This document shows positions 22,659 through 49,023 of a stretch of 64,000 nt of DNA, one piece after another. Source of the DNA: an uncultured Gemmatimonadales bacterium (GTDB lineage Bacteria; Gemmatimonadota; Gemmatimonadetes; Gemmatimonadales; GWC2-71-9); the NCBI GenBank assembly GCA_963698975.1, contig CAVOSV010000003.1, forward strand, positions 517,864-581,863. Reading direction: 5' to 3'. The notes under the pieces were generated by a model. The model did no database searches. It worked only from the letters and a program-made list of their open reading frames with translations, and was not told the DNA's origin. How positions within the stretch are numbered: the stretch's first letter is position 1; each line of letters opens with the position of its first letter. Both the position numbers and the translations under genes were made by a program.

Positions 22659-22678
22659 GAAACTGCACTTTATACCAG
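22659..22678 (-). promoter_or_regulatory. 20-nt motif copy 1 (gene-direction CTGGTATAAAGTGCAGTTTC)
   Basis: 64 nt upstream of the start at 22594. Most divergent copy (matches all invariant positions). Confidence 0.5.
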
Positions 22679-22754
22679 TCACTTGCATCCGGGGGCGTCG
22701 GATTGTGCCTTGGCGCCCCTTCAATTCATGAGAGACGCCGGCATGGTGGCCTGA

Positions 22755-22774
22755 CTGTCAGAACTGCCAGTTTC
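22755..22774 (+). promoter_or_regulatory. 20-nt motif copy 2 (CTGTCAGAACTGCCAGTTTC)
   Basis: 94 nt upstream of the start at 22869. Confidence 0.65.
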
Positions 22775-22868
22775 CTCGTGTAGCACCCGCTCCTAACGTC
22801 AAGCAGCGCCCGCACTCGCCACTCAGGCTCTGAGAAATCCTGCCCACGTCCCGCATGAGAGAGTTCCC

Positions 22869-23474
22869 ATGACGAACACCCTGATCGATCCAACGACCAC
22901 GCCAGAGACCGCTACGCGTGAGATCGTAGAAGACTGGTCCAAGCCCGCAGCGATGGCGATTCCCAAGGAAGGATTCTTCAAGCTGGAGCAGGGACGGTAC
23001 GGCCCTGTTTATCCGAAGACCCCCGCCAACTACGGATTTACCATCATCGCCAAGATCAAGCCGGGTACGGAGCAGACCATCCGTGAGTACGGCCACAAGA
23101 TCGAGAGTACCATCAAGGGTCTGCCGGACGGACTTGAGGTGCTCAAGCTGCATTACCTCCGCTGGGTGCTCTTCGATATCGGGAATGAGACCTACTTCAT
23201 GTATCAGGGCATCTTCGATACCGATTTCGACAAGTACACCGAGGACGCTGTTGCGCTCTTCGGCAAGTACGGCATCAGCACGATCTTCGAGAACCTGGAG
23301 GGCTTCCCCATGGACTGGAAGACCAACCCATCGGCGTTCGTCCAGTTCGTCCGCGACCACCACCGTCCCAGCTTCCTGGAGTACGGCGAGTACCCCTACG
23401 TGACCGCCGAGGAGATCAAGAAGGCGCTGCGGCTGAAGGCGGCATTCTCCAACATGCTGGATCAGATGCAGTGA
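22869..23474 (+). CDS. hypothetical 201-aa protein co-transcribed with DyP peroxidase
   Basis: No signal peptide. LKLHYLRWVLFDIGNETYFMYQGIFDTDFDKYTEDAVALF. The stop overlaps the DyP GTG start (GTGA). Confidence 0.7.
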   Translation: MTNTLIDPTTTPETATREIVEDWSKPAAMAIPKEGFFKLEQGRYGPVYPKTPANYGFTIIAKIKPGTEQTIREYGHKIESTIKGLPDGLEVLKLHYLRWVLFDIGNETYFMYQGIFDTDFDKYTEDAVALFGKYGISTIFENLEGFPMDWKTNPSAFVQFVRDHHRPSFLEYGEYPYVTAEEIKKALRLKAAFSNMLDQMQ

Positions 23475-24820
23475 TCGCGTCGCTGGGGGCAACGATGCTC
23501 GAGCTCGACGACATCCAGCACATTCTGGTCACGCGAACCCCGGCGCTGACGGGGCGATACGAATTTCTCACCTTCCGGGACTCCGCCAGCGCCCAGGCCT
23601 GGCTGGCGGGCATTCTGGAGAAGATCCGCTCCGCCTCCAGCGTACGCAGCACGGTTGAGAGCGACAACCGCTGGGTGAACGTGGCCTTCACCTGGGAAGG
23701 ATTGCGCGCCCTCGGCCTGGACGAAGAGTCGCTCGCCACGTTCCCCGAGGAATTCAAGCAGGGGATGGTGGCTCGGGCCGAAATGCTGGGCGACACCGGC
23801 GTCAATCACCCCAGCTGCTGGGTGGGAGACCTGGCCAGTCCCGATCTGCACGCCATTGTGATCCTCTTCGCCCGCACGGCGTCGGAGCACACCCGGTGCG
23901 TGGCCGCCCATGAGGAGCTGCTCGCGGAGCTCCCCGGAGTGGAACGGCTTTCCTATCTGGACCTCGAGGCCACTCCGCCCTTCGATTATGCCCACGACCA
24001 CTTCGGCTACCGCGACCGTCTCTCCCAGCCAGTGATGAAGGGAACCGGGGAGGAACCAACCCCCGGTTCAGGTGCAGCACTCGAGCCGGGCGAGTTCATC
24101 CTGGGCTATCCCGATGAGAACGGTCCTCCCGCTCTGCAGCCGCAACCGGAGGTGTTGTCCCGGAACGGCAGCTACATGGCCTATCGCCGGTTGGAGGAAC
24201 ACGTCGGCAAGTTCCGGGAGTTTCTCGCCGAACACGGAAAGACCCCCGAAGAACAGGAGTTCATCGCCGCCAAGCTTATGGGCCGGTGGCGCAGCGGCGC
24301 GCCTTTAACACTGGCACCCGAGAAGGATGATCCGGTGCTCGGCGCCGATATGCAGCGGAACAACGATTTCAACTACAAGAAGATGGACCCGCTGGGCTAT
24401 GCCGTTCCCCTCGGCTCCCATTGCCGCCGGATGAACCCGCGGGATACGGCTGCCAACATGAACCGGCGGCGGATGATCCGGCGCGGCGCAACCTACGGCC
24501 CGCTTCTACCGGAGGGCGCGCCCGACGACGGCGTGGAACGGGGGATCGCCGCGTTCGTGATCTGCGCCAGTCTCATCCGTCAGTTCGAGTTCGCCCAGAA
24601 CGTGTGGATCAACGACAAGAACTTTCACGAGCTGGGGAACGAGCGCGATCCGATTATCGGGACGCAGGATGGGACGCTGGAGTACAAGATTCCCAAGCGT
24701 CCGATCCGGAAGCGCATCACCGGTCTCCCCGCGTTCACCACCGTCCGGGGTGGAGCTTACTTCTTCCTCCCGGGCCTCAAGGCGCTCAGGTATCTAGCGG
24801 GCTTGAACGATGCGCACTGA
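23471..24820 (+). CDS. DyP-type peroxidase family protein
   Basis: LELDDIQHILV N-terminus, HFGYRDRLSQP (GxxDG-region variant) and proximal-His region GSHCRRMNPRD. An alternative ATG lies at 23495. Confidence 0.8.
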   Translation: MIASLGATMLELDDIQHILVTRTPALTGRYEFLTFRDSASAQAWLAGILEKIRSASSVRSTVESDNRWVNVAFTWEGLRALGLDEESLATFPEEFKQGMVARAEMLGDTGVNHPSCWVGDLASPDLHAIVILFARTASEHTRCVAAHEELLAELPGVERLSYLDLEATPPFDYAHDHFGYRDRLSQPVMKGTGEEPTPGSGAALEPGEFILGYPDENGPPALQPQPEVLSRNGSYMAYRRLEEHVGKFREFLAEHGKTPEEQEFIAAKLMGRWRSGAPLTLAPEKDDPVLGADMQRNNDFNYKKMDPLGYAVPLGSHCRRMNPRDTAANMNRRRMIRRGATYGPLLPEGAPDDGVERGIAAFVICASLIRQFEFAQNVWINDKNFHELGNERDPIIGTQDGTLEYKIPKRPIRKRITGLPAFTTVRGGAYFFLPGLKALRYLAGLNDAH

Positions 24821-24823
24821 GGC

Positions 24824-25732
24824 ATGCGCACTCCATTGCTGGCGCTGGCCTGCAGCTTCATCGCATCCGGGTGGGCGCAAGCCCAGAACCGGGGCGTCTA
24901 CCCGCTGGGCATGAGCGCCACGAGCTCGGGCGTGATGCCGGCCGCCGGGTTCACCTACTCGAACTCGTTCCTCTTCTACTCTCGCAACCGGAGCGTGGAT
25001 GCTGAAGGCGGAGTGCTCGCCACCGGCAGCAACTCGGTCCTGATGGACATGAACGGGTTCGTCTGGGCCAGCTCGAAGCAGGTTCTCGGGGGAGCGAGGC
25101 TGGCGGCATCGGCCACGCTGCCAATCGCCAACAACTCGCTTGCATCTGACGTGAGCGGGGCAATCAGCGGCGGCGGCGGGTTTGCGGATTCCTACTATCA
25201 GCCGGTGATCCTGGGCTGGGCCATGCCACGCGTCGACCTCAAGGCGATCTATGGATTCTTGGCTCCCACTGGACGATTTGAGGCCGGGGAGGATGATAAC
25301 GTCGGATCCGGCTACTGGACTCATGTGGTCGCCTCGGGTCAGACCTTTTATCTGACAGCAGACAAGAGAACGGCCATCTCAGCGTTCGAGATGTACGAGT
25401 TTCACGGCACGCAGGAGAGCACCGGCGTTCGGCCGGGGCAGACGCTCGATCTCGACTATTCGGCCACCCGGTCGTTTCCCCTGCGGGAGGACCTGCAGCT
25501 ACAGCTGGGACTGGTCGGCTACGAACAGCGGCAGACTACGGACAAGACCGGGCCAACGGTGACGGCGGACCAGGCCGCGGCTCACTACAGCGTCAACGCA
25601 CTGGGCTTCACCGCCAATCTGGGCTTCCCTGCACGGGAGGTCGGCCTCGGTTTCAGATATTTCAAGGAGTTTTCCAACCGGTCGACGTTCCAGGGCCACT
25701 CGCTGCAGATCGCGGCCTCAGTTCACTTCTAA
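24824..25732 (+). CDS. outer-membrane beta-barrel transporter-like protein (MetA-pathway phenol degradation / SphA-like family)
   Basis: Signal peptide ending AQAQ, then NRGVYPLGMSATSSGVMPAAGFTYSN. Alternating beta-strand pattern; ends ...AASVHF. Confidence 0.55.
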   Translation: MRTPLLALACSFIASGWAQAQNRGVYPLGMSATSSGVMPAAGFTYSNSFLFYSRNRSVDAEGGVLATGSNSVLMDMNGFVWASSKQVLGGARLAASATLPIANNSLASDVSGAISGGGGFADSYYQPVILGWAMPRVDLKAIYGFLAPTGRFEAGEDDNVGSGYWTHVVASGQTFYLTADKRTAISAFEMYEFHGTQESTGVRPGQTLDLDYSATRSFPLREDLQLQLGLVGYEQRQTTDKTGPTVTADQAAAHYSVNALGFTANLGFPAREVGLGFRYFKEFSNRSTFQGHSLQIAASVHF

Positions 25733-25767: not shown

Positions 25768-26853
25768 ATGAGTACGGGTAAAGCGGCAAGGACCTACAAC
25801 CAGGATCATGTGCCTCGCAAGTACAAGTCCGGCAAGCGTCGGGTGAGCATCTACTGGACCTGGAGCTATCCCTGGGAAGCGAACCGGGACCCGTCCGTGA
25901 TGGACAACCGCTTTTCGACCTTCACCGAGGTTCGGCGGGTGGCCTGGCCGGAGTATGAAACCCGGGAATGGAACGAGCAGGCCTTCCTTCAGGGCATTGC
26001 GGGCACACTGGAGCTGTTTCATCGCTCAACGCTGAGCTTTCAGCAGTTGGTGGGCGAGGCCACCGACCAGCCCGTCGCCGTCTTCCAGCGGATCGACCAG
26101 GCAGGGTATCGGCAGCCGATCGACGAGCGGATCCTGGCGGATACAGACACGCTGATGGTCTTCGGGCTCGACCACCTGCTGGCTGAGCAGGAGGCTTCGC
26201 CGGAAGAGATCGCGGCCCTCAGCGAGTGGCTCAAGCGCGAGGGAACCTGTCTCCTGATCGGCCCCCACCACGATGTGGGCTTTGCCGCGGACCTGGAGCA
26301 GCGGCAGATGGAGTACAAACATCACGGGGATCCCCTGGTGCCTCGGCAGCAGCGGTTCGGCCAGTACACCAGATCTTTGATGAAGGGGCTGGATGTTCCG
26401 GTGATAAATCAGTACGGACTCCGCCCGGCCGTGGTGAGAGGCACCAACCAGATTGCGCCGCTCCACACCAATCACGACCTCGACACCCTGGGTCTCCTGC
26501 GCAATGTCACCACCTTCAACTTTCATCCCCACCTGCCCCATTACGCCCTTACGACTGGCGACACCTCGTCGGTGCGGGTCCTCTCTTGCCAGGGGATCGA
26601 CCTGGATCGGCCGCACCCCTTTACTGCGGCGGGCAACACCGAATTCAACTGCTTCATCTGGATACCACCTCAGTCCGACCGAGGCGGAGATATCCTGATG
26701 GCCGACTCGACCATCTTCACTACGCTATTCGGTGGCACCCAAAGTCTGGAGAATTTCTGGCGCAACCTCGCGCTGATGAGACGAACTGAGCGAGCCACAC
26801 CAGCCCCCAGCCTGTCACAACTACCAGTTCCCGAGCGCACCTCGCGACTCTAG
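25768..26853 (+). CDS. hypothetical cytoplasmic protein, 361 aa, no family recognised
   Basis: Long ORF with good GC3 bias and no signal peptide. His-rich segments LLIGPHHDVGF, EYKHHGDP and NFHPHLPHY. Confidence 0.6.
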   Translation: MSTGKAARTYNQDHVPRKYKSGKRRVSIYWTWSYPWEANRDPSVMDNRFSTFTEVRRVAWPEYETREWNEQAFLQGIAGTLELFHRSTLSFQQLVGEATDQPVAVFQRIDQAGYRQPIDERILADTDTLMVFGLDHLLAEQEASPEEIAALSEWLKREGTCLLIGPHHDVGFAADLEQRQMEYKHHGDPLVPRQQRFGQYTRSLMKGLDVPVINQYGLRPAVVRGTNQIAPLHTNHDLDTLGLLRNVTTFNFHPHLPHYALTTGDTSSVRVLSCQGIDLDRPHPFTAAGNTEFNCFIWIPPQSDRGGDILMADSTIFTTLFGGTQSLENFWRNLALMRRTERATPAPSLSQLPVPERTSRL

Positions 26854-26975
26854 GGTGGAGCGATTCGCCAGTGCCCCGTTAGGCGGCTAAGAGATCCTGC
26901 CCGTCAGCCTCGCTTTGCTGTGCTCCTGCCGGCAACCAAGGCTGATGACGCCGTCCCTATCAAACGAGAAAAGAC

Positions 26976-31835: not shown

Positions 31836-32177
31836 TCATTGGCCCGCGTGGCGGTGCCGCAGCTCCGCCATGTCGCGATCGAGGAAGTAATTAAGGAATG
31901 TTCGAATCACCGCGACCGCACCGAGCCGGGCCACCGCCTCCCAGTGATGAGTTATGGAGGTCTCGAGGATGTCGGCGCCGAGCTGGAAGGTGAGTGCCGC
32001 CACCAGCCACCGGGCGTAGCCGAGCCACACATCGCGGCGCTCCGGCCGAGGCCCTCCCGCCAGGAGCAGCCGGACCACGGCGACGATTGCCTCCACCGAT
32101 CCCGCCAGGACCATCACTAGCGCGAGGCCGTTGAGGAAGGCGACGGAGATCTCGGTCACATGAATCAGCCAGTTCAT
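31836..32177 (-). CDS. DUF1622 domain-containing membrane protein
   Basis: 113 aa. MNWLIHVTEISVAFLNGLALVMVLAGSVEA...FQLGADILETSI matches my recollection of DUF1622. Confidence 0.65.
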   Translation of the reverse strand: MNWLIHVTEISVAFLNGLALVMVLAGSVEAIVAVVRLLLAGGPRPERRDVWLGYARWLVAALTFQLGADILETSITHHWEAVARLGAVAVIRTFLNYFLDRDMAELRHRHAGQ

Positions 32178-32209
32178 CAGCTTGACGATCCGGAATGGCG
32201 GCGCAGACT

Positions 32210-32229
32210 GAAACTGTCAGTTGTGACAG
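32210..32229 (-). promoter_or_regulatory. 20-nt motif copy 3 (CTGTCACAACTGACAGTTTC)
   Basis: 32 nt upstream of the ATG at 32177. Identical 20-mer at 49004-49023. Outer end of the left arm of the cassette. Confidence 0.7.
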
Positions 32230-32290
32230 GCGGTAGGTGAAGCAGCGGGAGGTACTGCAGCGGTAGGACGGTAGATGGAGCGGCGGTAGT
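32230..32290. repeat. left inverted arm of the four-helix-bundle cassette (CGGTAG-containing ~15-nt units)
   Basis: Its reverse complement aligns with 32731-32780: a 33-nt block CTGCAGTACCTCCC.C.GCTTCACCTACCGC with 2 mismatches. Confidence 0.8.
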
Positions 32291-32302
32291 CCGCCCGTAC
32301 TG

Positions 32303-32668: not shown

Positions 32669-32715
32669 CCCACAGTCTGACAGAAAATTTTTCGCTTGTA
32701 TAACCATCCTCGCGC

Positions 32716-32858: not shown

Positions 32859-32878
32859 CTGTCACAACAGACAGTTTC
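32859..32878 (+). promoter_or_regulatory. 20-nt motif copy 4 (CTGTCACAACAGACAGTTTC)
   Basis: 31 nt upstream of the ATG at 32910. Outer end of the right arm. Confidence 0.7.
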
Positions 32879-35111: not shown

Positions 35112-35131
35112 GTAACTGTTAGTTCTTACAG
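35112..35131 (-). promoter_or_regulatory. 20-nt motif copy 5 (CTGTAAGAACTAACAGTTAC)
   Basis: 81 nt upstream of the start at 35030. 19/20 identical to copy 6, with similarity continuing about 15 nt further. Confidence 0.65.
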
Positions 35132-36959: not shown

Positions 36960-36979
36960 GAAACTGTTAGTTCTTACAG
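36960..36979 (-). promoter_or_regulatory. 20-nt motif copy 6 (CTGTAAGAACTAACAGTTTC)
   Basis: 76 nt upstream of the start at 36883. Confidence 0.7.
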
Positions 36980-37003: not shown

Positions 37004-37023
37004 CTGGTAGAACTGACAGTTTC
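37004..37023 (+). promoter_or_regulatory. 20-nt motif copy 7 (CTGGTAGAACTGACAGTTTC)
   Basis: 55 nt upstream of the ATG at 37079. Inverted partner of copy 6, 24 nt away. Confidence 0.7.
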
Positions 37024-38565: not shown

Positions 38566-40052
38566 TGCGACGCTCCCTCTTTTTGGTTGCGCTCTGGGCG
38601 GTCTCGCCCGCGGCGATCGGTCAGGCGCAGGAGAAAGCATCGGTGACCCTCACCACCGAGCGCCAGGCGGTTACCAAAGGCGCGGCGCTCACCCAGAGCC
38701 GCGCCCTCAGCCAGAGCTTGGCCACTCCGCTCGGCCAACATATCGCCTGTCCCGACTGCAATCCTCCGAAGCGGTTCTGGGCCGGGGCCTGGGAGCTGAT
38801 GGCCGTGCAGTTCGTCCCCTGGGCCTACACCAAGTGGGTAACCGAGGGTGAGTGGTCGAACATCTCGCTCCGCACCTGGGAGGACAACATCAAGTTTCCC
38901 TGGCAGTGGGACAACAACAAGTTCAACAACAACCAGTTCGCCCATCCCTATCACGGCAGCCTCTACTTCAACGCTGGCCGAGCCAACGGTTACAACTTCT
39001 GGCAGTCTGCGCCCTGGGCCTTTGGTGGGAGTCTGATGTGGGAGCTCTTCGGCGAGGTCTGGGCTCCTTCCCCCAACGATCTGGCCAACACCACCCTGGG
39101 CGGAATTACTCTGGGCGAAATGCTGTTCCGGTTTTCCTCGCTCACGCTGAAGAACGAGGCGACCGGCTCCAACCGGATCGTACGCGAGGTGGGCGCGGGC
39201 TTGATCAACCCCATCCGGGGCTTCAATCGGTTGATCCGGGGCGAAGCCGGCCGGATCTCGGAGACCCCGCCCGATTGGCGTCCCACCCGGATTCAGGCAT
39301 CCATGGACGTGGGCTATCGCCGGTTCTCCACCTCGGCATCGCTGGATGACCCGGGCGCACTCGACCAATCGTTCGTTCAGTTCTCCGTGTTCTACGGCGA
39401 TCAGCTGGGTGATCTGGGAAAGGAGCCGTTCTCCGCCTTTCAGGTCTACGGCACCCTGGCGAGTCACTCCAGCAATCAAAAGCCGCTCCAGGAGCTCCGG
39501 GTCCGGGGCAACCTCGCCGCCAAGCCGGTGGGCTCCGGCGGAAACAAGCTGCTGGCCGGCTTCATGACCTACGAATACCTCCAAAATCCAGTGGTGGACT
39601 TTGGTGCGCAGGGCTTCCAGGGCGGGCTTCTGGTCTCCAGCTCGAAGCCTGGCAAGTCCATGCGGCTGTACGGCGAGGCCATGGCCCGGGTGAACCCGAT
39701 CGCGGCCATCCGGTCGGACTACTTCGTCACCGCCGAGGGGCGGGACTACGACTACGGAATCGGATTGGGTGGGCGGGTCGAGGGACGAGCCCTGTGGCCG
39801 GGGAAGGCCACTGTCCGCCTCTCTGGTGGTTACATATGGCTGCCGGTAATCAGTGGCTTCCCCGGAGACCACCAGCTCTGGACCCTGAGCACCGAGGCAC
39901 GGGGCTACTACCGTGGCAAGTATGGAGCTGGAGTGATGTACCAGCGGCTGTGGAAGAACAGCAATTACACCTTCAACCCCGATGTGAACCAGGACATGTC
40001 AGAGGTTCGGGTCTTCCTCTCCCTGGCCATCCCGAGATGGGAGGAACAATGA
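38565..40052 (+). CDS. DUF3943-like secreted protein
   Basis: Start MRRSLFLVALWAVSPAAIGQAQE (TAATG overlap with the FGE stop). FAHPYHGSLYFNAGRANGYNFWQSAPWAFGGSLMWELFGEVWAPSPNDLANTTLGGITLGE resembles DUF3943 as I recall it. Confidence 0.55.
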   Translation: MRRSLFLVALWAVSPAAIGQAQEKASVTLTTERQAVTKGAALTQSRALSQSLATPLGQHIACPDCNPPKRFWAGAWELMAVQFVPWAYTKWVTEGEWSNISLRTWEDNIKFPWQWDNNKFNNNQFAHPYHGSLYFNAGRANGYNFWQSAPWAFGGSLMWELFGEVWAPSPNDLANTTLGGITLGEMLFRFSSLTLKNEATGSNRIVREVGAGLINPIRGFNRLIRGEAGRISETPPDWRPTRIQASMDVGYRRFSTSASLDDPGALDQSFVQFSVFYGDQLGDLGKEPFSAFQVYGTLASHSSNQKPLQELRVRGNLAAKPVGSGGNKLLAGFMTYEYLQNPVVDFGAQGFQGGLLVSSSKPGKSMRLYGEAMARVNPIAAIRSDYFVTAEGRDYDYGIGLGGRVEGRALWPGKATVRLSGGYIWLPVISGFPGDHQLWTLSTEARGYYRGKYGAGVMYQRLWKNSNYTFNPDVNQDMSEVRVFLSLAIPRWEEQ

Positions 40053-40490: not shown

Positions 40491-41363
40491 ATGAGCATCG
40501 CAACCCTGCTCCCGCTCCTGCTCAAGACCAGCCTCGCGCTGCTGGTCTTCTCCCTGGGTCTCAGCGCCACCCTGCAGGACACCACATATCTGTTCCGCCG
40601 GCCCGGTCAGCTGGCCCGGGCGCTCGGGGCGATGTTCGTGGTCCTGCCGGTCACAGCATTGATTCTGGCTCGCGCACTCGAGCCGCCGGCGGCGGTGAAA
40701 ATCGCGCTGGTGGCTCTCGCGCTCTCGCCCCTGCCTCCGACGTTCCCCCGGAAGGCCCTCAAGCAAGGCGGCAGGGTCTCCTACGTGGCGGGGCTCCTGG
40801 TTGCCGCGACCCTCGTTGCGGTGCCGCTCATCCCCCTGTCGCTCGAGCTGATCGAACGGCAGAGAAACCTGCCCCTGCAGATGCGGCCCGCCGCGGTGCT
40901 GGCGCTGGTCTTCTGGTCGCTCCTGCTGCCGCTGTTGGCCGGGATCGTGGTTCGGAGGGCCTCTCCGGCGCTCGCCCAAAGAGCCGCTGGCCCGATCACC
41001 ACCATCGCGTTTGCGGTGCTTGTGCTGGGAGTGATCCCGATTCTGGTGCGGGTATGGCCGGCAATGGTCAGCCTGGTAGGAAACGGGACGCTGCTGGCGA
41101 TGGTCCTGCTCGTTGTGGTGGGTCTCGCCGCGGGGCACCTCCTGGGCGGACCCGATCCGGAGGACCGAACGGTCCTGGCGCTCTCCACCGCCACCCGTCA
41201 CCCCGCCATCGCCATTGCGATTGCGCAGGCCAACTTCCCGGACCAGAAACTGGCCCCCGCTGCCATCCTGCTGTATGTGCTGGTGAGTGTGGTTGTTGCA
41301 CTGCCCTATCTGAAATGGGCCAAACGCCACCACGTCGCTGCTCCGCTTCCGGCTAGCTCCTGA
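40491..41363 (+). CDS. bile acid:sodium symporter (BASS/SBF-like) family transporter
   Basis: 290 aa with about 8-9 TM helices. N-terminal LKTSLALLVFSLGLSATLQD and general resemblance to the family. Assignment is moderate. Confidence 0.5.
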   Translation: MSIATLLPLLLKTSLALLVFSLGLSATLQDTTYLFRRPGQLARALGAMFVVLPVTALILARALEPPAAVKIALVALALSPLPPTFPRKALKQGGRVSYVAGLLVAATLVAVPLIPLSLELIERQRNLPLQMRPAAVLALVFWSLLLPLLAGIVVRRASPALAQRAAGPITTIAFAVLVLGVIPILVRVWPAMVSLVGNGTLLAMVLLVVVGLAAGHLLGGPDPEDRTVLALSTATRHPAIAIAIAQANFPDQKLAPAAILLYVLVSVVVALPYLKWAKRHHVAAPLPASS

Positions 41364-44124
41364 CCACCGGACCAGAGCTCCCACCCGAATTGCCGTCGCT
41401 GGCCGAAGATCCCGAGTTCGGCACCGGAGCCGGGAACCATTGCCCCCTCGGCACTACCTTGGGTTGTTCGGGATCGCCCTCATAAGCCGGGACCATGATC
41501 TGCACGCCGTACTCGTTGAACAAGTCCAGAATATTCGAATGTAGCGCGCTGTAGAGCCTCATCATTGCGTGGGGAGTGTCGGTATAAGCATTGATCTCAT
41601 ACAGCACGCCGAACTCGCCCAGCGCTTTCTGCAGCACGAACGGCTCGGGCTGCCGAAGAAGTCCCGGCGTGCGCGCGGCGGCCTCGAGCAGCATCGCTTC
41701 CACTTGGCGCCACGGCGCCCCGTATCCAATCCTTACCGTCGTGTGCAGGATCAGGCCCGGGTCTGGCGCCAGGGTGCTGTAATTCACCACCTCACTGTTC
41801 AACAGCAGCGAGTTGGGGATGACGATCTGCTCGTTCTTGGGAGAACGCAAATAGGTGGTCAGTAAACGGACCTGAGTTACCGCTCCGACGTGCTCGCCCA
41901 CCTTCACCCGATCTCCCACCCTGAAGGCACGGCGGAAGGCCAGGGTCTGCCCCGCCACCAGATTGCTGATCACCGAGGGTGACCCCAGAGAGAAGATGAG
42001 ACCGAGCAGGAGCGTGATGCCCTTGAACGCCTCGGATCCGGAACCGGGGATGTAGGGGTACGCGATCACCAGCGCAAAGGCGACCGTGAGAAGCCGGACA
42101 ATCCAGTCGGTGGGCAGGGCCCAATCGGAATCGAAGCCGGGAATCGAAATCGATCCCTCGCCCACCCGTTGGAAGAACAGTCGGATCGCCCGCAGAAGGT
42201 AGCGGGTAAGCACCACCAGGATGATCAGGAAAAACAGGTTGGGCAAATAGCTCACCGCGCCCGTCCCAAATATGACCAGCGGTCCCAGCAGCCACTCCTT
42301 GAGTCTGGTGCCGACTCCCCGAGTCCAGGGGAAGAGACGGAGCACGTAAGACACAACGGCGTAGCTGGCCAGCACCGTCAGCAGAGCGGCGGTGACACCG
42401 ATTATCCAGTGCAGGCCCTGCCAGAGTTGTTCTCGGCGGACAATGGGAATCGCCCGGAAGTGCAGGTCAGCTATACCCGGCTGCCACCGGCGGTCGAGAG
42501 TCCTTCGCAGCCAGCGAAAGGTCTGGCGTCCGAGCCAGAGCACCAGCAGCAGTGCGAGGAGGGCTGCTGCGGCTCGGGCGATGTTCCTCCCCAGAACGGT
42601 TGGCTCGCGATCGTGCCTGAACGTCTGCACCGCCTCCCGCACCCGAGTCAGGTAGGTCTGCGCCAGAACATGGGGTGTGACACCCTCGAGCTCGGCATCG
42701 GCCTGAAGCACGCCGAACAGCCTGTGGTTGCCGGCTACCACCATGCTCCCATCACGAGTTTCCTGAATCGCGAGTGACTCCGCCGGGAGCGAGCGATCGC
42801 CGGCGAACTCTGCGATCCGGTGGGAGATGTCGGCGGCGCGCCGCTCAGCCGGATAGGAGCTGACTCCCCGAACGGAGAAGAGCACCGCGCCGTCGAGCAC
42901 CACCGGCGCGGTAGGCGCCTCAGCTGTGACGATGGCTCCCGTGGAATCCTGGGCCTCGGCGCGGGCGCTCACGCCGGCGGCGGCCAGGCCGGTTATAACC
43001 ATCACGGCAACATCATGCCGCCGCGTTCGGACCAGCCATAACGCCCCCAGCGCGATCACCGCCACCAGCGCGGTGAAAGCGAGGAAGGCGCGCAGCAGCA
43101 AGCGGCCGAGCACCAGTCCGGCGTGGTCGATGGAGCGCTGGGCGATGCTGTCGATCGAAGCAACCGCGGCTCGCCGTTCCGCATCCACCGCCTCGAGCAC
43201 CGCCTCCCGTTCCGTTCGGATGGCGTCGACCAGCGCGACCCGCTCCGCCGTAATCCCTCCCATCACTGCGGACCGCTCCCCGGCAAGTCCGGCGAAGATG
43301 GCATTGCGCTGGGCATCGACGCCCAGCGATAGCTGGCGCCCCTGATCGGCGATGTCCCGCAGCATCGCCGTGCGCGCCTGCTTCAGAAGCGGCGGAATCA
43401 GCTCTCCTGCGGCCAGTTGGGTTTGCCACTGAACGCGCTTCAGCATCCCTTCGTTGATATAGCCCAGCCGGCTGTTTATTCCGAGGAGGCTTCGCTCCAC
43501 GCTGGCGACGGTGCCGCTCAGATTCGTCTCCATGATTGACAAGGCCTTCCAATCACTGGAGAGGACCGACTGACGAACCAGGTCGCTGCCGCGAATCGGG
43601 TGCCGGTCCGCCCAGCCTTGAACCGACTGCACGACCTGGGCGAGCGTGTCTCCGCCGCTGCCAATCATTCGGCCGGCGACCAAACCCACCAGGCTCTGGA
43701 GTGTATCCGAGGCGGCGAGGGCAATCGGCTGGAGGTTGCCGAACGCTTCGCGCCCGTCACCCCGCCTCAGGTAGTGGGAGAGCTGCATCGTGAGCGCCCA
43801 GAGATCGACGGTGGCGACAACCGGATCGGATCGAAGTGACGCCTCTTCGATCAGCGGCGTCGCCGCGATCTTCCAGCGCAGAGCCCGGCGGCGAACGGTG
43901 GAGTCGGGACTGTGGGCTGCGATGGTGTCCGCTGCGGATTCAACGATGTAGGAAGATTCCCGCCCAGCCTCGTAGATCCGTAGCTGCAGCTCGCCCGCGG
44001 TGACCTCGGATGCATCCATCGCGGCCAGCGAGGCGGATGGCGGCGGGGCCTTGAGGCAGGCGCCCGCCACCAACGGCAGGAAAGCCGCTGCGGCATATTG
44101 GGAGAAGAAGGCCGGCAGGTGCAT
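41353..44124 (-). CDS. large mechanosensitive channel family protein (MscS domain at the C-terminus)
   Basis: C-terminal MscS core FRVGDRVKVGEHVGAVTQVRLLTTYLRSPKNEQIVIPNSLLLNSEVVNYS. About 350-aa N-terminal periplasmic-looking region behind a lipoprotein-like signal (LVAGAC). Confidence 0.8.
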   Translation of the reverse strand: MHLPAFFSQYAAAAFLPLVAGACLKAPPPSASLAAMDASEVTAGELQLRIYEAGRESSYIVESAADTIAAHSPDSTVRRRALRWKIAATPLIEEASLRSDPVVATVDLWALTMQLSHYLRRGDGREAFGNLQPIALAASDTLQSLVGLVAGRMIGSGGDTLAQVVQSVQGWADRHPIRGSDLVRQSVLSSDWKALSIMETNLSGTVASVERSLLGINSRLGYINEGMLKRVQWQTQLAAGELIPPLLKQARTAMLRDIADQGRQLSLGVDAQRNAIFAGLAGERSAVMGGITAERVALVDAIRTEREAVLEAVDAERRAAVASIDSIAQRSIDHAGLVLGRLLLRAFLAFTALVAVIALGALWLVRTRRHDVAVMVITGLAAAGVSARAEAQDSTGAIVTAEAPTAPVVLDGAVLFSVRGVSSYPAERRAADISHRIAEFAGDRSLPAESLAIQETRDGSMVVAGNHRLFGVLQADAELEGVTPHVLAQTYLTRVREAVQTFRHDREPTVLGRNIARAAAALLALLLVLWLGRQTFRWLRRTLDRRWQPGIADLHFRAIPIVRREQLWQGLHWIIGVTAALLTVLASYAVVSYVLRLFPWTRGVGTRLKEWLLGPLVIFGTGAVSYLPNLFFLIILVVLTRYLLRAIRLFFQRVGEGSISIPGFDSDWALPTDWIVRLLTVAFALVIAYPYIPGSGSEAFKGITLLLGLIFSLGSPSVISNLVAGQTLAFRRAFRVGDRVKVGEHVGAVTQVRLLTTYLRSPKNEQIVIPNSLLLNSEVVNYSTLAPDPGLILHTTVRIGYGAPWRQVEAMLLEAAARTPGLLRQPEPFVLQKALGEFGVLYEINAYTDTPHAMMRLYSALHSNILDLFNEYGVQIMVPAYEGDPEQPKVVPRGQWFPAPVPNSGSSASDGNSGGSSGPVVRS

Positions 44125-44187
44125 GGGTCTCCGGCTGCAGCCTTGAATTGTGTTTCCGTCGGGATTTATGGAGCTGGAGGCGCTTCA

Positions 44188-44207
44188 GAAACTGGTATTT
44201 CTGACAG
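44188..44207 (-). promoter_or_regulatory. 20-nt motif copy 8 (CTGTCAGAAATACCAGTTTC)
   Basis: 63 nt upstream of the ATG at 44124. Abuts the stop codon (44209-44211) of the upstream gene. Confidence 0.6.
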
Positions 44208-45420: not shown

Positions 45421-46233
45421 TCAGACAGCGGCCGACAGGCTGGGCCTTCTCCCATTTGAGGGGGCGGTCTCGGCATCGGCAAAGGACAGGACGCGAGGGA
45501 GGGTCGCCTGGATCCGGGTTCCCTGCCCCGGCGCGCTCTTCACCAGCAGCGACCCGCCCACACCGCGGAGTCTCTGGCGCATGCTCATCATGCCGAAGCC
45601 TTCGATTCGGTCCATCAGATCGGGCTCGAAACCGACACCCGCATCCGAGACGGTAAGCTTCAGCAGGGAATCCGTGGCCTCGAGCTTGACCCACACGGCG
45701 TCGGCGCCGCTGTGCTTGGCCGCGTTGTGCAGCGCCTCCTGGGTCACCCGGTACAGCGTCAACGCGGTGGCACCGGGTAGCTCTCCCGGCCAACTCGTTT
45801 CAGAGACGTGGATGGCGAGTCCATAGTGCTCCAGGTCCTGGCACAGTGCCCGCACCGCCGGCACCAGACCGAGGTATTCCAGCCGAGCCGGGTGGAGCCC
45901 GCGGGTGACATGCTGAATATCGGCGGCAATGGACCGGACCCGCTGGGCCAACTCCGCAATCCTGACCCCCACGGAGCGGGTGAACTGGGAGGTCGGCATT
46001 CCCAGCGCGTCCAGCTCCAACGCGAGCACCGCGAGTTGCTGGCTGATGTCGTCATGCAGCTCCCGGGCAATCCGGCTCCGTTCCGTCTCCAGCATTTGAA
46101 GCAGGCCACCACTGAGCCGCGCCAGGTCAGCCTCTGCCGCCCGGCGGCGCTGGCTGTTGCGCACGGCCGCCCAGACCAGCAGCATCAGTGCAGTGGGTGC
46201 AAGCAGCGCGGCAATGAACATTGAAAGAGACAT
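45421..46233 (-). CDS. sensor histidine kinase, HisKA_3 (NarX/DesK-like) type, single N-terminal TM, no extracytoplasmic domain
   Basis: H-box RIARELHDDISQQLAVL. HATPase segments NAAKHSGA and DAGVGF...GFGMMSMRQR. Confidence 0.85.
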   Translation of the reverse strand: MSLSMFIAALLAPTALMLLVWAAVRNSQRRRAAEADLARLSGGLLQMLETERSRIARELHDDISQQLAVLALELDALGMPTSQFTRSVGVRIAELAQRVRSIAADIQHVTRGLHPARLEYLGLVPAVRALCQDLEHYGLAIHVSETSWPGELPGATALTLYRVTQEALHNAAKHSGADAVWVKLEATDSLLKLTVSDAGVGFEPDLMDRIEGFGMMSMRQRLRGVGGSLLVKSAPGQGTRIQATLPRVLSFADAETAPSNGRRPSLSAAV

Positions 46234-47682: not shown

Positions 47683-47697
47683 GGTAGAGTCCGGGAG

Positions 47698-48402
47698 TCA
47701 GATCAGACGACGTTTGACTGCGTATTGCACCAGCTCGGCGCTCGAATGCAAAGAGAGTTGCCGCATGATTCTGTACTTGTGAAAAGCCACAGTTCGGGGA
47801 GTGATCCCCAGTGCCGCTCCCGCCTGCTTCATGGTGCTGCCCCCGGCTACCAGCCGAAGCACTTCTCGCTCACGGGACGATAGCGACTCCGCCTCGCAAA
47901 CATCGGCGATCCGCCGCACGGGGGCCGGGGTAGCCGCTGGGCGTCGCACCTGCTGCGGATACGGTTCTCCCGCCAACACGGTGCGGATTGCATGGAGAAG
48001 CTCTGATGCGGGAGTCGTTTTCAGAATGTAGGCCGAGGCGCCCGACCGGAACGCCTGGGCTGCAAGCTCGGGATCGTCATGCATGGTGAGCACGATGCAG
48101 TGCACCTGGGAGAGGCGGCGCCGAATACGCTGCACCGCTTGGAGTCCGCTGAGCCGGGGCATGCTCACATCGCAGAGCACCACGTCGGGCCGGAGCTCGT
48201 TGGCGGCATCGACCAGGGCTGCTCCATCAGTCACCGTGCGCAGCACGGTAAACTCCCGCTCCAGCATCTGCCGCAGCGCATCCAGGAGCAGGCTGTGATC
48301 GTCGGCGAGAAGAAGGCGAGGACGTTTGATGGGCGACCTGGAGTAACTGCCGGCCCACGGCTCGGGGGTTCCGCTTTGCCACGAAGGGGCAGGTGTACCC
48401 AT
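47698..48402 (-). CDS. response regulator, NarL/LuxR family (REC + LuxR-type HTH)
   Basis: LLLADDHSLLLDAL, DVVLCDVSMP, then SSREREVLRLVAGGSTMKQAGAALGITPRTVAFHKYRIM. Confidence 0.9.
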   Translation of the reverse strand: MGTPAPSWQSGTPEPWAGSYSRSPIKRPRLLLADDHSLLLDALRQMLEREFTVLRTVTDGAALVDAANELRPDVVLCDVSMPRLSGLQAVQRIRRRLSQVHCIVLTMHDDPELAAQAFRSGASAYILKTTPASELLHAIRTVLAGEPYPQQVRRPAATPAPVRRIADVCEAESLSSREREVLRLVAGGSTMKQAGAALGITPRTVAFHKYRIMRQLSLHSSAELVQYAVKRRLI

Positions 48403-48494
48403 ACTGAGCTTGCCCTTAGTAAAGGAAGCAGTCTCTTTGCCGAGTGGATCCCGAATGGTCGATGGCCAACGGTAGGATTGTCGACTTTACGCAG

Positions 48495-48514
48495 TAACTG
48501 GACCTTAGACTAGG
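48495..48514. promoter_or_regulatory. site X: AACTGGACCTTAGACTAGGC, contains a 13-mer shared (inverted) with 53364-53376
   Basis: GACCTTAGACTAG (48501-48513) is the reverse complement of CTAGTCTAAGGTC (53364-53376). Lies about 90 nt upstream of the start at 48402 and overlaps the stop of the upstream receiver gene. Confidence 0.4.
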
Positions 48515-48947
48515 CGGTTGTGCCGCCCTCCCGGTCTTCACTGATGCGTTCCCGAATGTCGGTCCAGGCAGGAACTTTGGACTGACCTGCCAGCGCGGCG
48601 TGTATGGTGGGGATGAGATCGATACCAGCTTGTGACTTGAGGACGTACCCCCGGGCACCAGCCTCAAGGGCGGCAGCGAGCACCGCGGGATCCGAAAGGA
48701 CGCTGAGCACGACGATCGCCGACGTGGTGTTCTCGGCCCGGATCTGCCGGATGGCCTCGATCCCGCCCATCCTCGGCATGGCCAGATCGATGACCACCAC
48801 GTTGGGCCGAAGTGTCCGAGCCAACCGGACCGCCTCCACCCCGTCAGCTGCCTCTCCCGCTATCTCGAACTCGGGATCGAGCAGCCTGCGGATGGCCGCA
48901 AGCAGCGGGGGATGATCGTCGGCAAGCAGAACCCGGAGACGGGCCAT
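48510..48947 (-). CDS. stand-alone receiver (CheY-like) protein
   Basis: MARLRVLLADDHPPLL, VVVIDLAMPRMGG, YVLKS. No output domain. Start chosen at the internal ATG 48947 (ORF opens at 48980). Confidence 0.8.
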   Translation of the reverse strand: MARLRVLLADDHPPLLAAIRRLLDPEFEIAGEAADGVEAVRLARTLRPNVVVIDLAMPRMGGIEAIRQIRAENTTSAIVVLSVLSDPAVLAAALEAGARGYVLKSQAGIDLIPTIHAALAGQSKVPAWTDIRERISEDREGGTTA

Positions 48948-49003
48948 AGGCACGATCCTGGAGGGGCGAAGCTGTGGCACATTAGAGTTTGGGAGGTAGG
49001 GGG

Positions 49004-49023
49004 GAAACTGTCAGTTGTGACAG
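49004..49023 (-). promoter_or_regulatory. 20-nt motif copy 9 (CTGTCACAACTGACAGTTTC)
   Basis: 56 nt upstream of the ATG at 48947, in the divergent region shared with the FixJ-type regulator gene. Exact 20-mer identity to copy 3. Confidence 0.7.

What the first reader, a model, noticed from the sequence alone, without database searches (positions are those of the whole stretch)
22659..49023. Oriented 20-nt motif CTGnnAnAAnnnnCAGTTTC repeated at least nine times in front of envelope-protein genes
Read in the direction of the adjacent gene, the copies are: 22678-22659 CTGGTATAAAGTGCAGTTTC; 22755-22774 CTGTCAGAACTGCCAGTTTC; 32229-32210 CTGTCACAACTGACAGTTTC; 32859-32878 CTGTCACAACAGACAGTTTC; 35131-35112 CTGTAAGAACTAACAGTTAC; 36979-36960 CTGTAAGAACTAACAGTTTC; 37004-37023 CTGGTAGAACTGACAGTTTC; 44207-44188 CTGTCAGAAATACCAGTTTC; 49023-49004 CTGTCACAACTGACAGTTTC. 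Positions 1-3 (CTG), 6 (A), 8-9 (AA), 14-18 (CAGTT) and 20 (C) are invariant in all nine. Every copy is intergenic. In every case the GTTTC end points at a start codon 31-94 nt away (31, 32, 55, 56, 63, 64, 76, 81, 94). The downstream genes are a small lipoprotein, the DyP operon, a DUF1622 membrane protein, three beta-barrel/lipoprotein genes, the 168-aa periplasmic protein/FGE operon, a lipoprotein-type MscS channel and a receiver protein. The core is a CTG-N10-CAG dyad. That is the architecture of lux-type boxes bound by LuxR-family HTH proteins and of the E. coli LexA box CTGT-N8-ACAG. However, the conserved AA and GTTTC make the motif asymmetric. That fits a promoter-coupled activator site or an alternative-sigma promoter better than a plain palindromic operator. 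The competing explanation is terminal repeats of a MITE-like element (see the paired copies). I do not recognise it as a described motif.
Basis: partly seen in the sequence, partly recalled or inferred. Interest (0 to 1): 0.8.

Follow-up and report, generated by a model that had tools for sequence, protein, structure and literature searches.

The report
Response-regulator operator built into ten promoters
The repeated 20-nt motif is real and is most likely the docking site of a two-component response regulator, joined to a weak promoter, that switches on about ten envelope and osmotic-stress operons in an uncultured soil bacterium (Gemmatimonadales), and the same site-plus-regulator pair is also found in Acidobacteriota.

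Summary
The window has 10 copies, the nine reported plus 26812-26831, against 0.03 expected by chance. All lie between 22.6 and 49.0 kb and all point at a start codon 31-144 nt away.

Each copy is a composite. Positions 1-16 are an inverted repeat, CTGTCA-N4-TGACAG. Positions 17-20 (TTTC) begin a weak -35 hexamer. A -10 hexamer TAnnGT follows exactly 19 nt after the motif, giving a 17-bp spacer. The dyad centre therefore falls near -43.5, a class-II activator position. No TSS data exist.

The best candidate binder is the NarL/FixJ-family response regulator at 47698-48402 (RR1), whose own operon starts behind the copy at 49004-49023. That copy is invariant across Gemmatimonadales relatives with 62-95% identical RR1. 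RR1 homologues in Acidobacteriota (41-51% identical) keep the recognition helix RTVAFHKYRIM and are surrounded by the same palindrome (267 sites against 14 in shuffles). Contigs picked by the motif alone are enriched for RR1-signature genes.

MITE, LexA box, ECF41 promoter, RNA hairpin and CRP/FNR readings were tested and rejected or weakened.

Nothing matching was found in the literature. It is a new member of a known kind: a lux-box-like operator of a LuxR/NarL-type regulator. Binding and activation are inferred, not shown.

The parts
49004..49023 (-). Motif copy CTGTCACAACTGACAGTTTC; autoregulatory operator and -35 of the REC1-RR1-MIP-OMP-HK-Omp85 operon
   Evidence: -10 TAATGT at 48979-48984, ATG at 48947 (56 nt); the block GGTTGCAAGCTGTCACAA(C/A)TGACAGTT(T/A)C is invariant in 11 Gemmatimonadales sequences while the flanks diverge.
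44188..44207 (-). Motif copy CTGTCAGAAATACCAGTTTC in front of the 923-aa MscS-type channel gene (41353-44124)
   Evidence: -10 TAAATC at 44163-44168. The same variant sits upstream of MscS orthologues in L003 and L009.
37004..37023 (+). Motif copy CTGGTAGAACTGACAGTTTC in front of the 168-aa periplasmic protein and FGE genes (37079-38366), with the DUF3943 gene (38448-40052) following on the same strand
   Evidence: The -10 is CATAGT-like, 20-21 nt after the motif. The site stands back-to-back with the 36960 copy, 24 nt apart.
36960..36979 (-). Motif copy CTGTAAGAACTAACAGTTTC in front of the DUF4136 lipoprotein gene (36203-36883)
   Evidence: -10 TAGCGT at 36935-36940. A DUF4136 orthologue in L008 carries CTGTAAGAACTGACAGTTTC.
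35112..35131 (-). Motif copy CTGTAAGAACTAACAGTTAC in front of the OMP beta-barrel gene (34350-35030), with the glycine-zipper gene (33780-34322) following on the same strand
   Evidence: -10 TACCCT at 35087-35092. The OMP orthologue in L006 has the identical core.
32859..32878 (+). Motif copy CTGTCACAACAGACAGTTTC in front of the 288-aa protein gene (32910-33776); predicted leaderless
   Evidence: -10 CAAGCT at 32898-32903. The predicted TSS coincides with the ATG at 32910.
32210..32229 (-). Motif copy CTGTCACAACTGACAGTTTC in front of the DUF1622 gene (31836-32177); predicted leaderless
   Evidence: -10 GATCGT at 32185-32190. The ATG lies 32 nt after the motif. The same 32-nt arrangement occurs in metagenome loci L096 and L125.
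26812..26831 (+).
   Evidence: -10 TAGGGT at 26851-26856. Sulfatase and FGE genes lie next to sites in L010, L059 and L077 as well.
22755..22774 (+). Motif copy CTGTCAGAACTGCCAGTTTC in front of a run of same-strand genes: 201-aa protein, DyP, MetA-type OMP (22869-25732)
   Evidence: -10 TAACGT at 22794-22799.
22659..22678 (-). Weakest copy, CTGGTATAAAGTGCAGTTTC, in front of the 89-aa gene (22325-22594); a paralogue of the 168-aa protein gene (21734-22240) follows on the same strand after an 84-nt gap
   Evidence: (PWM 21.4 bits against 30-35 for the others) and 61: -10 CATAGT at 22634-22639.
47698..48402 (-). RR1: NarL/FixJ-family response regulator (REC + GerE HTH), the proposed binder of the motif
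   Evidence: Response_reg 6.6e-27, GerE 1.1e-17; recognition helix RTVAFHKYRIM is at least 90% conserved in 92 homologues. Searches show co-occurrence with the motif in both directions of search.
48510..48947 (-). REC1: single-domain receiver, first gene behind the autoregulatory copy
   Evidence: It is conserved next to RR1 in Gemmatimonadales, and REC1-like genes are frequent in the acidobacterial loci (57).
45421..46233 (-). HisKA_3 histidine kinase in the same operon; presumed phosphodonor for RR1
   Evidence: HisKA_3 7.9e-11, HATPase_c 2.7e-15. Conserved synteny. The pairing with RR1 is inferred from the operon only.
49094..49744 (+). RR2: FixJ-like response regulator transcribed divergently from the 49004 copy; alternative binder, less likely
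   Evidence: FixJ model 2.4e-57, below its cut-off. Its recognition helix differs. No full-length RR2-type gene occurs in the acidobacterial loci that carry the palindrome.

Best explanation
Each copy is the operator and -35 region of an activator-dependent promoter. Positions 1-16 are an inverted repeat, CTGTCA-N4-TGACAG. It is bound by a dimer of the NarL/FixJ-family response regulator RR1 (47698-48402), presumably after phosphorylation by the HisKA_3 kinase of the same operon (45421-46233). Positions 17-20 (TTTC) are the first four bases of a poor -35 hexamer, TTTCnn. A 17-bp spacer and a -10 hexamer TAnnGT follow. The dyad centre therefore sits at about -43.5, abutting the -35, the place from which class-II activators recruit RNA polymerase to promoters that have no good -35 of their own.

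The regulon in this window comprises about ten transcription units. They encode outer-membrane, periplasmic and membrane proteins (MscS channel, aquaporin, OMP beta-barrels, DUF4136 lipoprotein, DUF1622, glycine-zipper protein, DyP, sulfatase/FGE) plus the regulator's own operon, which gives positive autoregulation.

Shown here: the motif, its statistics, the fixed geometry relative to a -10-like hexamer, its conservation, and its two-way association with RR1-type genes. Inferred: binding by RR1, activation rather than repression, the kinase partner, the TSS positions, and the physiological signal (envelope or osmotic stress is a guess from gene content).
For: (1) The window has 10 copies against 0.03 expected. 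All point at a gene start, and the nine reported copies are intergenic (P = 1.8e-7).

(2) In 29 distinct Gemmatimonadales promoters, the hexamer 19 nt after the motif reads T 19, A 26, n, n, G/T, T 23 of 29, preceded by a pyrimidine in 29 of 29. In the window alone, 9 of 10 have A at hexamer position 2.

(3) Two genes start 31-32 nt after the motif, exactly where this geometry places the TSS. They have no room for a Shine-Dalgarno sequence, whereas longer leaders carry AGGAGG-type sites. The 32-nt arrangement recurs at DUF1622 genes in L096 and L125.

(4) In the footprint upstream of the REC1-RR1 operon, a 28-nt block with the motif and the A and T of the -10 are invariant in 11 sequences whose RR1 proteins are 62-95% identical, while the flanks are diverged.

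(5) Site variants are conserved gene by gene across species, for example CTGTCAGAAATACCAG at MscS and CTGTAAGAACTAACAG at the OMP gene.

(6) Loci retrieved with RR1 from Acidobacteriota (41-51% identity) carry the palindrome A-CTGTCA-N4-TGACAG-T 267 times in 47 loci, against 14 in shuffles. The highest peak lies in the 500 nt upstream of the RR1 homologue (28 sites). 74% are intergenic against about 18% of the sequence being non-coding by my gene calls. When sites are oriented to the downstream gene, a T is enriched at the same -7 position.

(7) The recognition helix RTVAFHKYRIM is at least 90% conserved in 92 RR1 homologues, whereas the proteins as a whole are only 41-51% identical to RR1.

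(8) Reverse test: 120 metagenome contigs (587 kb) chosen only for an exact motif match hold RR1-signature genes in 10 loci, and hold one CRP-family hit.

(9) 200 kb of an acidobacterial megaplasmid without an RR1-type gene has no such site.

(10) A canonical sigma-70 scan finds no promoter at any copy, as expected for activator-dependent promoters.
Against: There is no binding, TSS or expression data. The organism is an uncultured Gemmatimonadales MAG lineage.

RR1 and RR2 are both syntenic with the autoregulatory copy in Gemmatimonadales, so within that order synteny does not separate them.

In the acidobacterial loci, 24% of all other genes have a site within 350 nt upstream against 39% of RR1-type genes. 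The association with RR1 is therefore regional rather than exclusive. A different factor that happens to co-occur is not excluded.

Many of the loci are orthologous and not independent. The shuffles preserve only mononucleotide content. Gene calls are my own heuristic.

The strict polarity of the central AA with TTTC in Gemmatimonadales (30 of 30) is not explained by a symmetric dimer alone.
Confidence: 0.62

Rival explanations
1. The palindrome is bound by a different dimeric regulator: the neighbouring FixJ-like RR2 (49094-49744), or a CRP/FNR-family protein such as the one at 5196-5936. TGTCA-N4-TGACA has the 5-4-5 layout of FNR-type sites, which also act from about -41.5. Under this reading RR1 is merely one of its targets.
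For: RR2 is encoded divergently from the 49004 copy and is syntenic with it in the Gemmatimonadales loci that extend upstream of the site. The window encodes a cNMP-binding/HTH_Crp_2 protein. The half-site geometry fits FNR-type sites (from general knowledge). Sites precede 24% of non-RR genes in the acidobacterial loci, so linkage to RR1 is not exclusive.
Against: No full-length RR2-type gene was found in the 66 non-Gemmatimonadales loci that are rich in the palindrome, and the RR2 recognition helix differs from RR1's. Motif-selected contigs contain RR1-signature genes in 10 loci but only one CRP-family hit in 587 kb. The conserved outer C and G, and A/T beyond them in Acidobacteriota, make a 16-18-bp CTG-N10-CAG box. 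That is typical of LuxR-type boxes, not of FNR boxes (general knowledge).
Confidence: 0.15
2. The whole 20-mer plus the downstream hexamer is the promoter of an alternative sigma factor. Candidates are an ECF sigma, or the group-2 sigma encoded at 11494-12399. No separate activator would be needed.
For: The motif is oriented and sits at a fixed distance from a -10-like element. Several -10 regions contain CGT(C), as ECF promoters do. C is frequent at -13 (18 of 29), with a pyrimidine at -14 (29 of 29), reminiscent of stress-sigma promoters (general knowledge). A group-2 sigma is encoded 10 kb away. TGTCACA is the ECF41 -35 (PMC3426412).
Against: The 16 bp upstream of the -35 form a true dyad, with both halves conserved. 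In Acidobacteriota the site is symmetric, is used in both orientations and has no TTTC. The ECF41 rule TGTCACA-N16(+/-1)-CGTC is not met. CGT lies about 34 nt from TGTCACA, and half the copies lack TGTCACA. No ECF sigma gene is linked to the sites. A stress sigma could still read the -10 together with the activator, which would add to the best explanation rather than replace it.
Confidence: 0.08
3. The copies are ends or remnants of a small mobile repeat (MITE or REP-like) that happens to land between genes.
For: There are two back-to-back pairs (22659/22755 and 36960/37004). There is a third pair (32210/32859) whose flanks extend into a 38-nt inverted repeat, 95% complementary, around a low-GC four-helix-bundle gene.
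Against: Similarity between copies ends after about 20-24 nt, except for that one pair and for two paralogous promoters. The copies are at orthologous promoter positions in relatives down to 62% RR1 protein identity, with gene-specific variants kept. Every copy is oriented to a gene, with a -10 at a fixed 19 nt. No target-site duplications were seen. The back-to-back pairs are divergent promoters.
Confidence: 0.03
4. It is a LexA-type SOS operator (CTGT-N8-ACAG), or else a transcribed hairpin acting as an attenuator or terminator.
For: Seven of the ten copies match CTGT-N8-ACAG. The dyad followed by TTT could fold as a 6-bp hairpin. The 44188 copy starts 1-2 nt after the stop codon of the upstream gene.
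Against: None of the downstream genes is an SOS gene. The site lies upstream of the -35 rather than over the -35, the -10 or the TSS. Stem positions 4-13 and 5-12 can pair in only 9 and 8 of 17 distinct sites, with no compensatory changes. Most copies have no co-directional upstream gene to terminate.
Confidence: 0.02

Closest known systems
lux/las boxes of LuxR-type quorum-sensing activators (LuxR, LasR, RhlR, TraR)
   Same: Both are a 16-20-bp dyad with a CTG-N10-CAG frame. The window variant CTGGCAGTTCTGACAG differs at two positions from the lasB-type core CTGCCAGTTCTGGCAG as I recall it. In both, the site is centred about -42.5 to -43.5, next to or overlapping a weak -35. Both are bound by a dimer with a GerE/LuxR-type HTH, and the regulator gene is often autoregulated. 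RhlR, QscR and SdiA are among the PDB matches of the RR1 DNA-binding domain.
   Different: RR1 has a phospho-receiver domain, not an acyl-homoserine-lactone-binding domain. It sits in an operon with a histidine kinase, so the input is phosphorylation, not a diffusible signal. No LuxI-type gene is present in the window. The lux/las box sequences and the -42.5 position are from my own knowledge; I did not check them against a paper.
NarL/FixJ-family response regulators acting from palindromic sites next to the -35 (DevR/DosR dormancy regulon of Mycobacterium; GacA/UvrY box TGTAAG-N6-CTTACA; EvgA)
   Same: The domain architecture is the same (REC + GerE). The best PDB and NCBIfam matches are NarL, VraR, DesR, EvgA and GacA/UvrY-type models, all below their family cut-offs. 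As in those systems, there is a palindromic operator, autoregulation of the regulator operon, and a regulon of stress-type genes clustered near the regulator. The half-site variant TGTAAG equals the GacA half-site (recalled from memory).
   Different: The spacing differs (N4 between hexamers here; N6 in the GacA box as I recall it). The recognition helix RTVAFHKYRIM is distinct. No NCBIfam equivalog is reached. The phyla differ. The regulon content differs too: envelope, channel and sulfatase genes.
ECF41 sigma-factor promoters (TGTCACA-N16-CGTC)
   Same: Five window copies contain TGTCACA, and several -10 regions contain CGTC. The consensus is taken from PMC3426412.
   Different: The spacing is about 34 nt, not 16 +/- 1. 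The motif is a dyad. No ECF41 sigma gene or carboxymuconolactone decarboxylase/oxidoreductase/epimerase gene is linked to it.

Membership tests
Operator of a LuxR/NarL(FixJ)-family HTH dimer at a class-II activated promoter | Inverted repeat of about 16-20 bp with two half-sites about 10 bp apart | tested here: met
   CTGTCA-N4-TGACAG. Both halves are conserved in 29 Gemmatimonadales promoters, and the repeat extends to A...T in Acidobacteriota.
Operator of a LuxR/NarL(FixJ)-family HTH dimer at a class-II activated promoter | Site centred about -41.5 to -43.5, abutting or overlapping a poor -35, with a recognisable -10 | tested here: inconclusive
   A -10-like TAnnGT lies at a fixed 19 nt. That gives a centre of -43.5 and a -35 of TTTCnn with a 17-bp spacer. 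Two genes begin exactly at the predicted TSS. No canonical promoter is found. There is no experimental TSS.
Operator of a LuxR/NarL(FixJ)-family HTH dimer at a class-II activated promoter | A cognate regulator of that family is genetically linked to the motif and co-occurs with it | tested here: met
   RR1 has a GerE domain. The autoregulatory site is invariant. Motif and RR1 co-occur in both directions of search. The recognition helix is conserved.
Operator of a LuxR/NarL(FixJ)-family HTH dimer at a class-II activated promoter | Direct, sequence-specific binding and regulator-dependent transcription | not testable with these tools
   This needs EMSA or DAP-seq and reporter or in vitro transcription assays.
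Quorum-sensing lux box (LuxR/LuxI type) | The regulator carries an autoinducer-binding domain and is paired with, or responds to, an AHL synthase | tested here: not met
   RR1 and RR2 carry Response_reg domains and no Autoind_bind domain. No LuxI-type family was found among the window genes scanned.
LexA SOS box (CTGT-N8-ACAG type) | Located over the promoter or TSS of DNA-damage genes (lexA, recA, uvrA, etc.) | tested here: not met
   The downstream genes are envelope and signalling genes. The sites lie upstream of the -35.
ECF41-dependent promoter | -35 TGTCACA and -10 CGTC separated by 16 +/- 1 bp, upstream of COE or ECF41 genes (PMC3426412) | tested here: not met
   The distance is about 34 nt. 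TGTCACA occurs in only 5 of 10 copies. There are no ECF41 or COE genes.
MITE / REP-type mobile repeat | Extended terminal inverted repeats with target-site duplications; variable presence between relatives | tested here: not met
   Similarity is limited to about 20-24 nt. The copies are at conserved orthologous positions. One pair (32210/32859) has longer inverted flanks around an inserted gene and is the only exception.
Structured RNA / intrinsic terminator | Base pairing maintained by compensatory changes | tested here: not met
   Inner stem positions pair in only 9 and 8 of 17 distinct sites, with no compensatory pattern.

The most novel reading that the evidence does not exclude
A single, so far undescribed subfamily of NarL-type response regulators, defined by the recognition helix RTVAFHKYRIM, together with its lux-box-like operator ACTGTCA-N4-TGACAGT, forms a cross-phylum master regulon. 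It occurs in Gemmatimonadota and Acidobacteriota and in a few Gammaproteobacteria MAGs. It governs envelope and osmotic remodelling: MscS channels, aquaporin, outer-membrane proteins, periplasmic proteins, PPK2 and sulfatases. In Acidobacteriota several paralogous regulators, many of them orphans, converge on the same operator, and about a quarter of the genes across regions of at least 20 kb carry a site. In Gemmatimonadales the operator has become fused to the -35 and is strictly polar.
Probability: 0.35. Interest if true: 0.6.

Novelty: new member of a known kind. Interest (0 to 1): 0.45.

Why it matters
Gemmatimonadota and Acidobacteriota are among the most abundant soil phyla, and almost nothing is known about how they regulate genes. 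This result gives a concrete and testable regulator-operator-regulon triplet: a 16-18-bp operator, a signature recognition helix and a promoter geometry. The triplet can be scanned for in thousands of MAGs. That would allow prediction of which envelope, channel and stress genes respond together, possibly to osmotic or wet-dry transitions. It also gives a first sketch of promoter architecture in Gemmatimonadales (-35 TTTCnn, 17-bp spacer, -10 TAnnGT, two predicted leaderless genes). It does not reveal a new type of mechanism.

Tried and rejected
- **Exact-sequence look-up.** The look-up of RR1 in public assemblies found nothing. The organism is known only through relatives at up to 95% identity.

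- **Literature.** Searches for the motif strings, for lux boxes in Acidobacteria, for Gemmatimonadetes regulator motifs and for acidobacterial promoter motifs found no description of this site. The one relevant paper (ECF41) served as a negative test.

- **Plasmids.** A tblastn search of RR1 against plasmids found only relatives of 38% identity or less, so there is no cultured or annotated counterpart there.

- **Canonical promoters.** The sigma-70 scan finds no promoter at any copy.

- **Family assignment.** NCBIfam and PDB searches give no equivalog or close solved homologue for RR1 or its DNA-binding domain.

- **General promoter element.** I asked whether the palindrome is a general feature of acidobacterial promoters. 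200 kb of Granulicella tundricola pACIX901 has none. I could not scan unselected DNA from a genome that carries RR1, so the size of the regulon in Acidobacteriota is unresolved.

- **TTTC as a general -35.** I looked for TTTC as a general -35 in other upstream regions of the window. The sample is too small to say.

- **Rejected readings.** The MITE, LexA, ECF41 and RNA-hairpin readings were rejected, as set out under the rival explanations.

Full report
**1. The observation**

A search for CTGNNANAANNNNCAGTTTC with up to one mismatch finds ten copies in the 64-kb window. They are the nine reported, at the reported coordinates and strands, plus 26812-26831(+) (CTGTCACAACTACCAGTTCC). Dinucleotide-preserving shuffles give 0.03 matches on average. 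Every CTG-N10-CAGTT in the window is one of these ten. All lie between 22.6 and 49.0 kb; the other 37 kb has none.

With my own ORF/GC3 gene calls, the nine reported copies are intergenic. The tenth overlaps the last 42 nt of an ORF. The chance of at least 9 of 10 being intergenic is 1.8e-7. The reported distances to start codons are reproduced. The reported gene identities are borne out by Pfam for DyP, DUF1622, OMP_b-brl, DUF4136, FGE-sulfatase, MscS and Response_reg. The small lipoprotein, the 168-aa periplasmic protein and the 288-aa protein have no family hit.

**2. Anatomy**

I aligned the copies in the direction of the downstream gene and added copies from relatives, giving 29 distinct promoters. 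Three parts emerge.

- Positions 1-16 are an inverted repeat, CTGTCA-N4-TGACAG.
- Positions 17-20 are TT(T/A)C.
- Exactly 19 nt further on is a hexamer reading T (19/29), A (26/29), n, n, G/T, T (23/29). It is preceded by a pyrimidine in all 29.

If that hexamer is the -10, then TTTCnn occupies -35 to -30 with a 17-bp spacer, and the dyad centre lies at about -43.5.

The -35 matches TTGACA at only two positions, and a canonical sigma-70 scan finds no promoter at any copy. That is what activator-dependent promoters look like.

There is an internal check. The two genes whose ATG lies 31-32 nt after the motif (32177 and 32910) start exactly at the TSS predicted by this geometry, and they have no room for a ribosome-binding site. 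Genes with longer leaders carry AGGAGG-like sequences. The 32-nt arrangement recurs at DUF1622 genes on two unrelated metagenome contigs.

The inner positions of the dyad vary without compensatory changes; they pair in 9 and 8 of 17 distinct sites. The symmetry is therefore that of a protein-binding site, not of a hairpin.

**3. Who binds it**

The copy at 49004-49023 precedes an operon that encodes, in order:

- a single-domain receiver (48510-48947);
- a NarL/FixJ-type response regulator, RR1 (47698-48402);
- an aquaporin;
- a 245-aa protein;
- a HisKA_3 kinase (45421-46233);
- an Omp85-like protein.

A FixJ-like regulator, RR2 (49094-49744), is transcribed divergently.

RR1's closest relatives are from Gemmatimonadales MAGs. 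In 11 sequences whose RR1 proteins are 62-95% identical, the intergenic region is diverged except for two elements. One is an invariant 28-nt block holding the motif. The other is the A and T of the -10.

Site variants are kept gene by gene across species, at MscS, at the OMP gene and at DUF4136. That indicates selection on each individual site.

The same genome search returned 66 loci with RR1 homologues of 41-51% identity. Most are from Acidobacteriota, and a few are from Gammaproteobacteria MAGs. These loci are full of the palindrome A-CTGTCA-N4-TGACAG-T. There are 267 sites in 47 full-length loci against 14 after shuffling, and the highest peak is in the 500 nt upstream of the RR1 homologue. 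74% are intergenic, where about 18% of the sequence is non-coding by my gene calls. When sites are oriented to the downstream gene, a T is enriched at the same -7 position.

Across 92 homologues the recognition helix RTVAFHKYRIM is at least 90% conserved, although the proteins overall are only 41-51% identical to RR1. RR2 has a different helix. No full-length RR2-type gene occurs in the acidobacterial loci.

I also ran the reverse test. 120 metagenome contigs (587 kb) chosen only for an exact motif match contain RR1-signature genes in 10 loci, against a single CRP-family hit.

As a composition control, 200 kb of an acidobacterial megaplasmid that lacks an RR1-type gene has no such site.

Together these results make RR1 the best candidate binder. 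They do not prove it.

**4. What it controls**

In the window the targets are:

- a small secreted protein and a paralogue of the 168-aa protein;
- a DyP peroxidase cluster with a MetA-type outer-membrane protein;
- a sulfatase cluster;
- DUF1622;
- a 288-aa protein;
- an OMP beta-barrel plus a glycine-zipper protein;
- a DUF4136 lipoprotein;
- the 168-aa protein, FGE and DUF3943 cluster;
- a 923-aa MscS channel;
- the regulator operon itself, which includes the aquaporin.

I collected 123 non-redundant downstream genes from all loci. The recurrent families are receivers (16), DUF4136 (5), PPK2 (4), histidine kinases (4), OMP beta-barrels (4), sortase (3), MscS (3), FGE, sulfatase and DUF1622. 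MscS, FGE, sulfatase, the 168-aa protein and the 420-aa protein recur next to sites in both phyla.

The content suggests envelope or osmotic adaptation. That is a guess from gene names.

**5. Rivals**

- **CRP/FNR-type or RR2 binder.** This is the most serious alternative, because TGTCA-N4-TGACA has an FNR-like layout and RR2 is syntenic in Gemmatimonadales. argue against both.
- **Alternative sigma alone.** This cannot explain the dyad. The ECF41 rule TGTCACA-N16-CGTC (PMC3426412) fails on spacing. However, the C-rich -13/-14 context and a group-2 sigma gene at 11494-12399 leave open that a stress sigma reads the -10 together with the activator.
- **MITE, LexA box and hairpin.** These are rejected.

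**6. What remains unexplained**

In Gemmatimonadales the central AA (positions 8-9) is always co-oriented with TTTC (30 of 30), and divergent genes each have their own copy. In Acidobacteriota the site is symmetric (AA 24, TT 33) and lacks TTTC. A symmetric dimer does not predict this polarity.

In the acidobacterial loci, 24% of non-RR genes have a site within 350 nt upstream, and the density does not fall within 10 kb of the regulator. I could not tell whether this reflects very large islands or a genome-wide regulon.

**7. Comparison with what is known, and novelty**

In function and in form this is a lux-box-like operator used from a class-II position by a LuxR/NarL-family HTH protein. The nearest analogues are LuxR/LasR boxes and NarL-family regulators such as DevR/DosR or GacA; these comparisons rest on general knowledge.

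It is not a quorum-sensing lux box, because the regulator has a receiver domain. RR1 reaches no curated equivalog and has no close solved homologue. Five literature searches found no description of the motif.

I therefore rate it a new member of a known kind. The regulon is real, conserved and previously undescribed, in poorly studied phyla, and it works by a familiar mechanism.

**8. Caveats**

- There is no experimental evidence of any kind.
- Many loci are orthologous and therefore not independent.
- The shuffles preserve only base composition.
- Gene calls outside the window are heuristic.
- The lux/las, GacA and DevR comparisons are recalled from memory and were not checked against papers.

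Noticed in passing
window 32230-32858: The divergent copies at 32210 and 32859 are separated by a low-GC insert. It carries a four-helix-bundle protein gene (32303-32743, minus strand; TIGR02436, E = 1.6e-28). The insert is flanked by a 38-nt inverted repeat (32229-32266 / 32744-32781, 95% complementary) and by CTACCGC-rich tandem repeats (32728-32845). On metagenome contigs L096 and L125 the DUF1622 copy has GAAA on its upstream side, so it reads GAAA-core-TTTC. This suggests an ancestral bidirectional site that was split and duplicated by the insertion.
   Followed up: partly
window 12409-12437, 12505-12533 and 62925-62946: Tandem heptads GAGTC(A/G)C form two inverted blocks about 70 nt apart, directly upstream of the group-2 sigma factor gene (11494-12399, minus strand). 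They recur upstream of 62280-62738. There are 14 matches against 4.95 expected.
   Followed up: no
window 11494-12399 (-): A 301-aa sigma factor with regions 1.2, 2, 3 and 4 but no region 1.1. Its best NCBIfam matches are RpoD C-terminal, RpoS and SigB models, all below their cut-offs. It is a group-2-type sigma encoded 10 kb from the regulon island.
   Followed up: partly
window 21734-22240 (-) and 37079-37585 (+): Two paralogous 168-aa secreted-protein genes, 77% identical over 492 nt. One directly follows a motif promoter; the other lies in the same-strand gene run behind one. Homologues lie next to sites in six other loci, including acidobacterial ones.
   Followed up: partly
window 32177 and 32910 (start codons): Two genes are predicted to be leaderless. 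The ATG lies 6-7 nt after the -10-like hexamer, and there is no Shine-Dalgarno sequence.
   Followed up: partly
Gemmatimonadales loci L001-L013 and the window, against Acidobacteriota loci L014-L079: The central AA of the dyad spacer is co-oriented with TTTC in 30 of 30 Gemmatimonadales sites. In acidobacterial sites followed by TTnC, the same positions read AA 24 times and TT 33 times, with other dinucleotides making up the rest. The polarity is unexplained.
   Followed up: partly
metagenome loci L081, L084, L095, L100, L101, L110, L113, L115, L136, L148, L166, L185, L188, L189, L197: A conserved, longer element, GGAACTGTCAGAACTGACAGTTTCGGGAAGATTCTCTGCCAGG, recurs on at least 15 contigs of another lineage. 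In L081 it lies about 140 nt upstream of an adenylate-cyclase/TPR gene. No RR1-signature gene was seen on these short contigs.
   Followed up: no
window 49024-49093, and alignment A1 columns 55-85: On the RR2 side of the autoregulatory copy, the sequence CTTGCAACCTTTCGC is conserved. It contains TTGCAA directly after the dyad, and a second TTTCGC lies 17 nt upstream of CATACT. This is probably the divergent promoter for RR2.
   Followed up: no
window 21021-21121: A 49-nt inverted repeat (71% complementary, 3-nt loop) lies directly after the OmpA-family gene 19541-21007.
   Followed up: no
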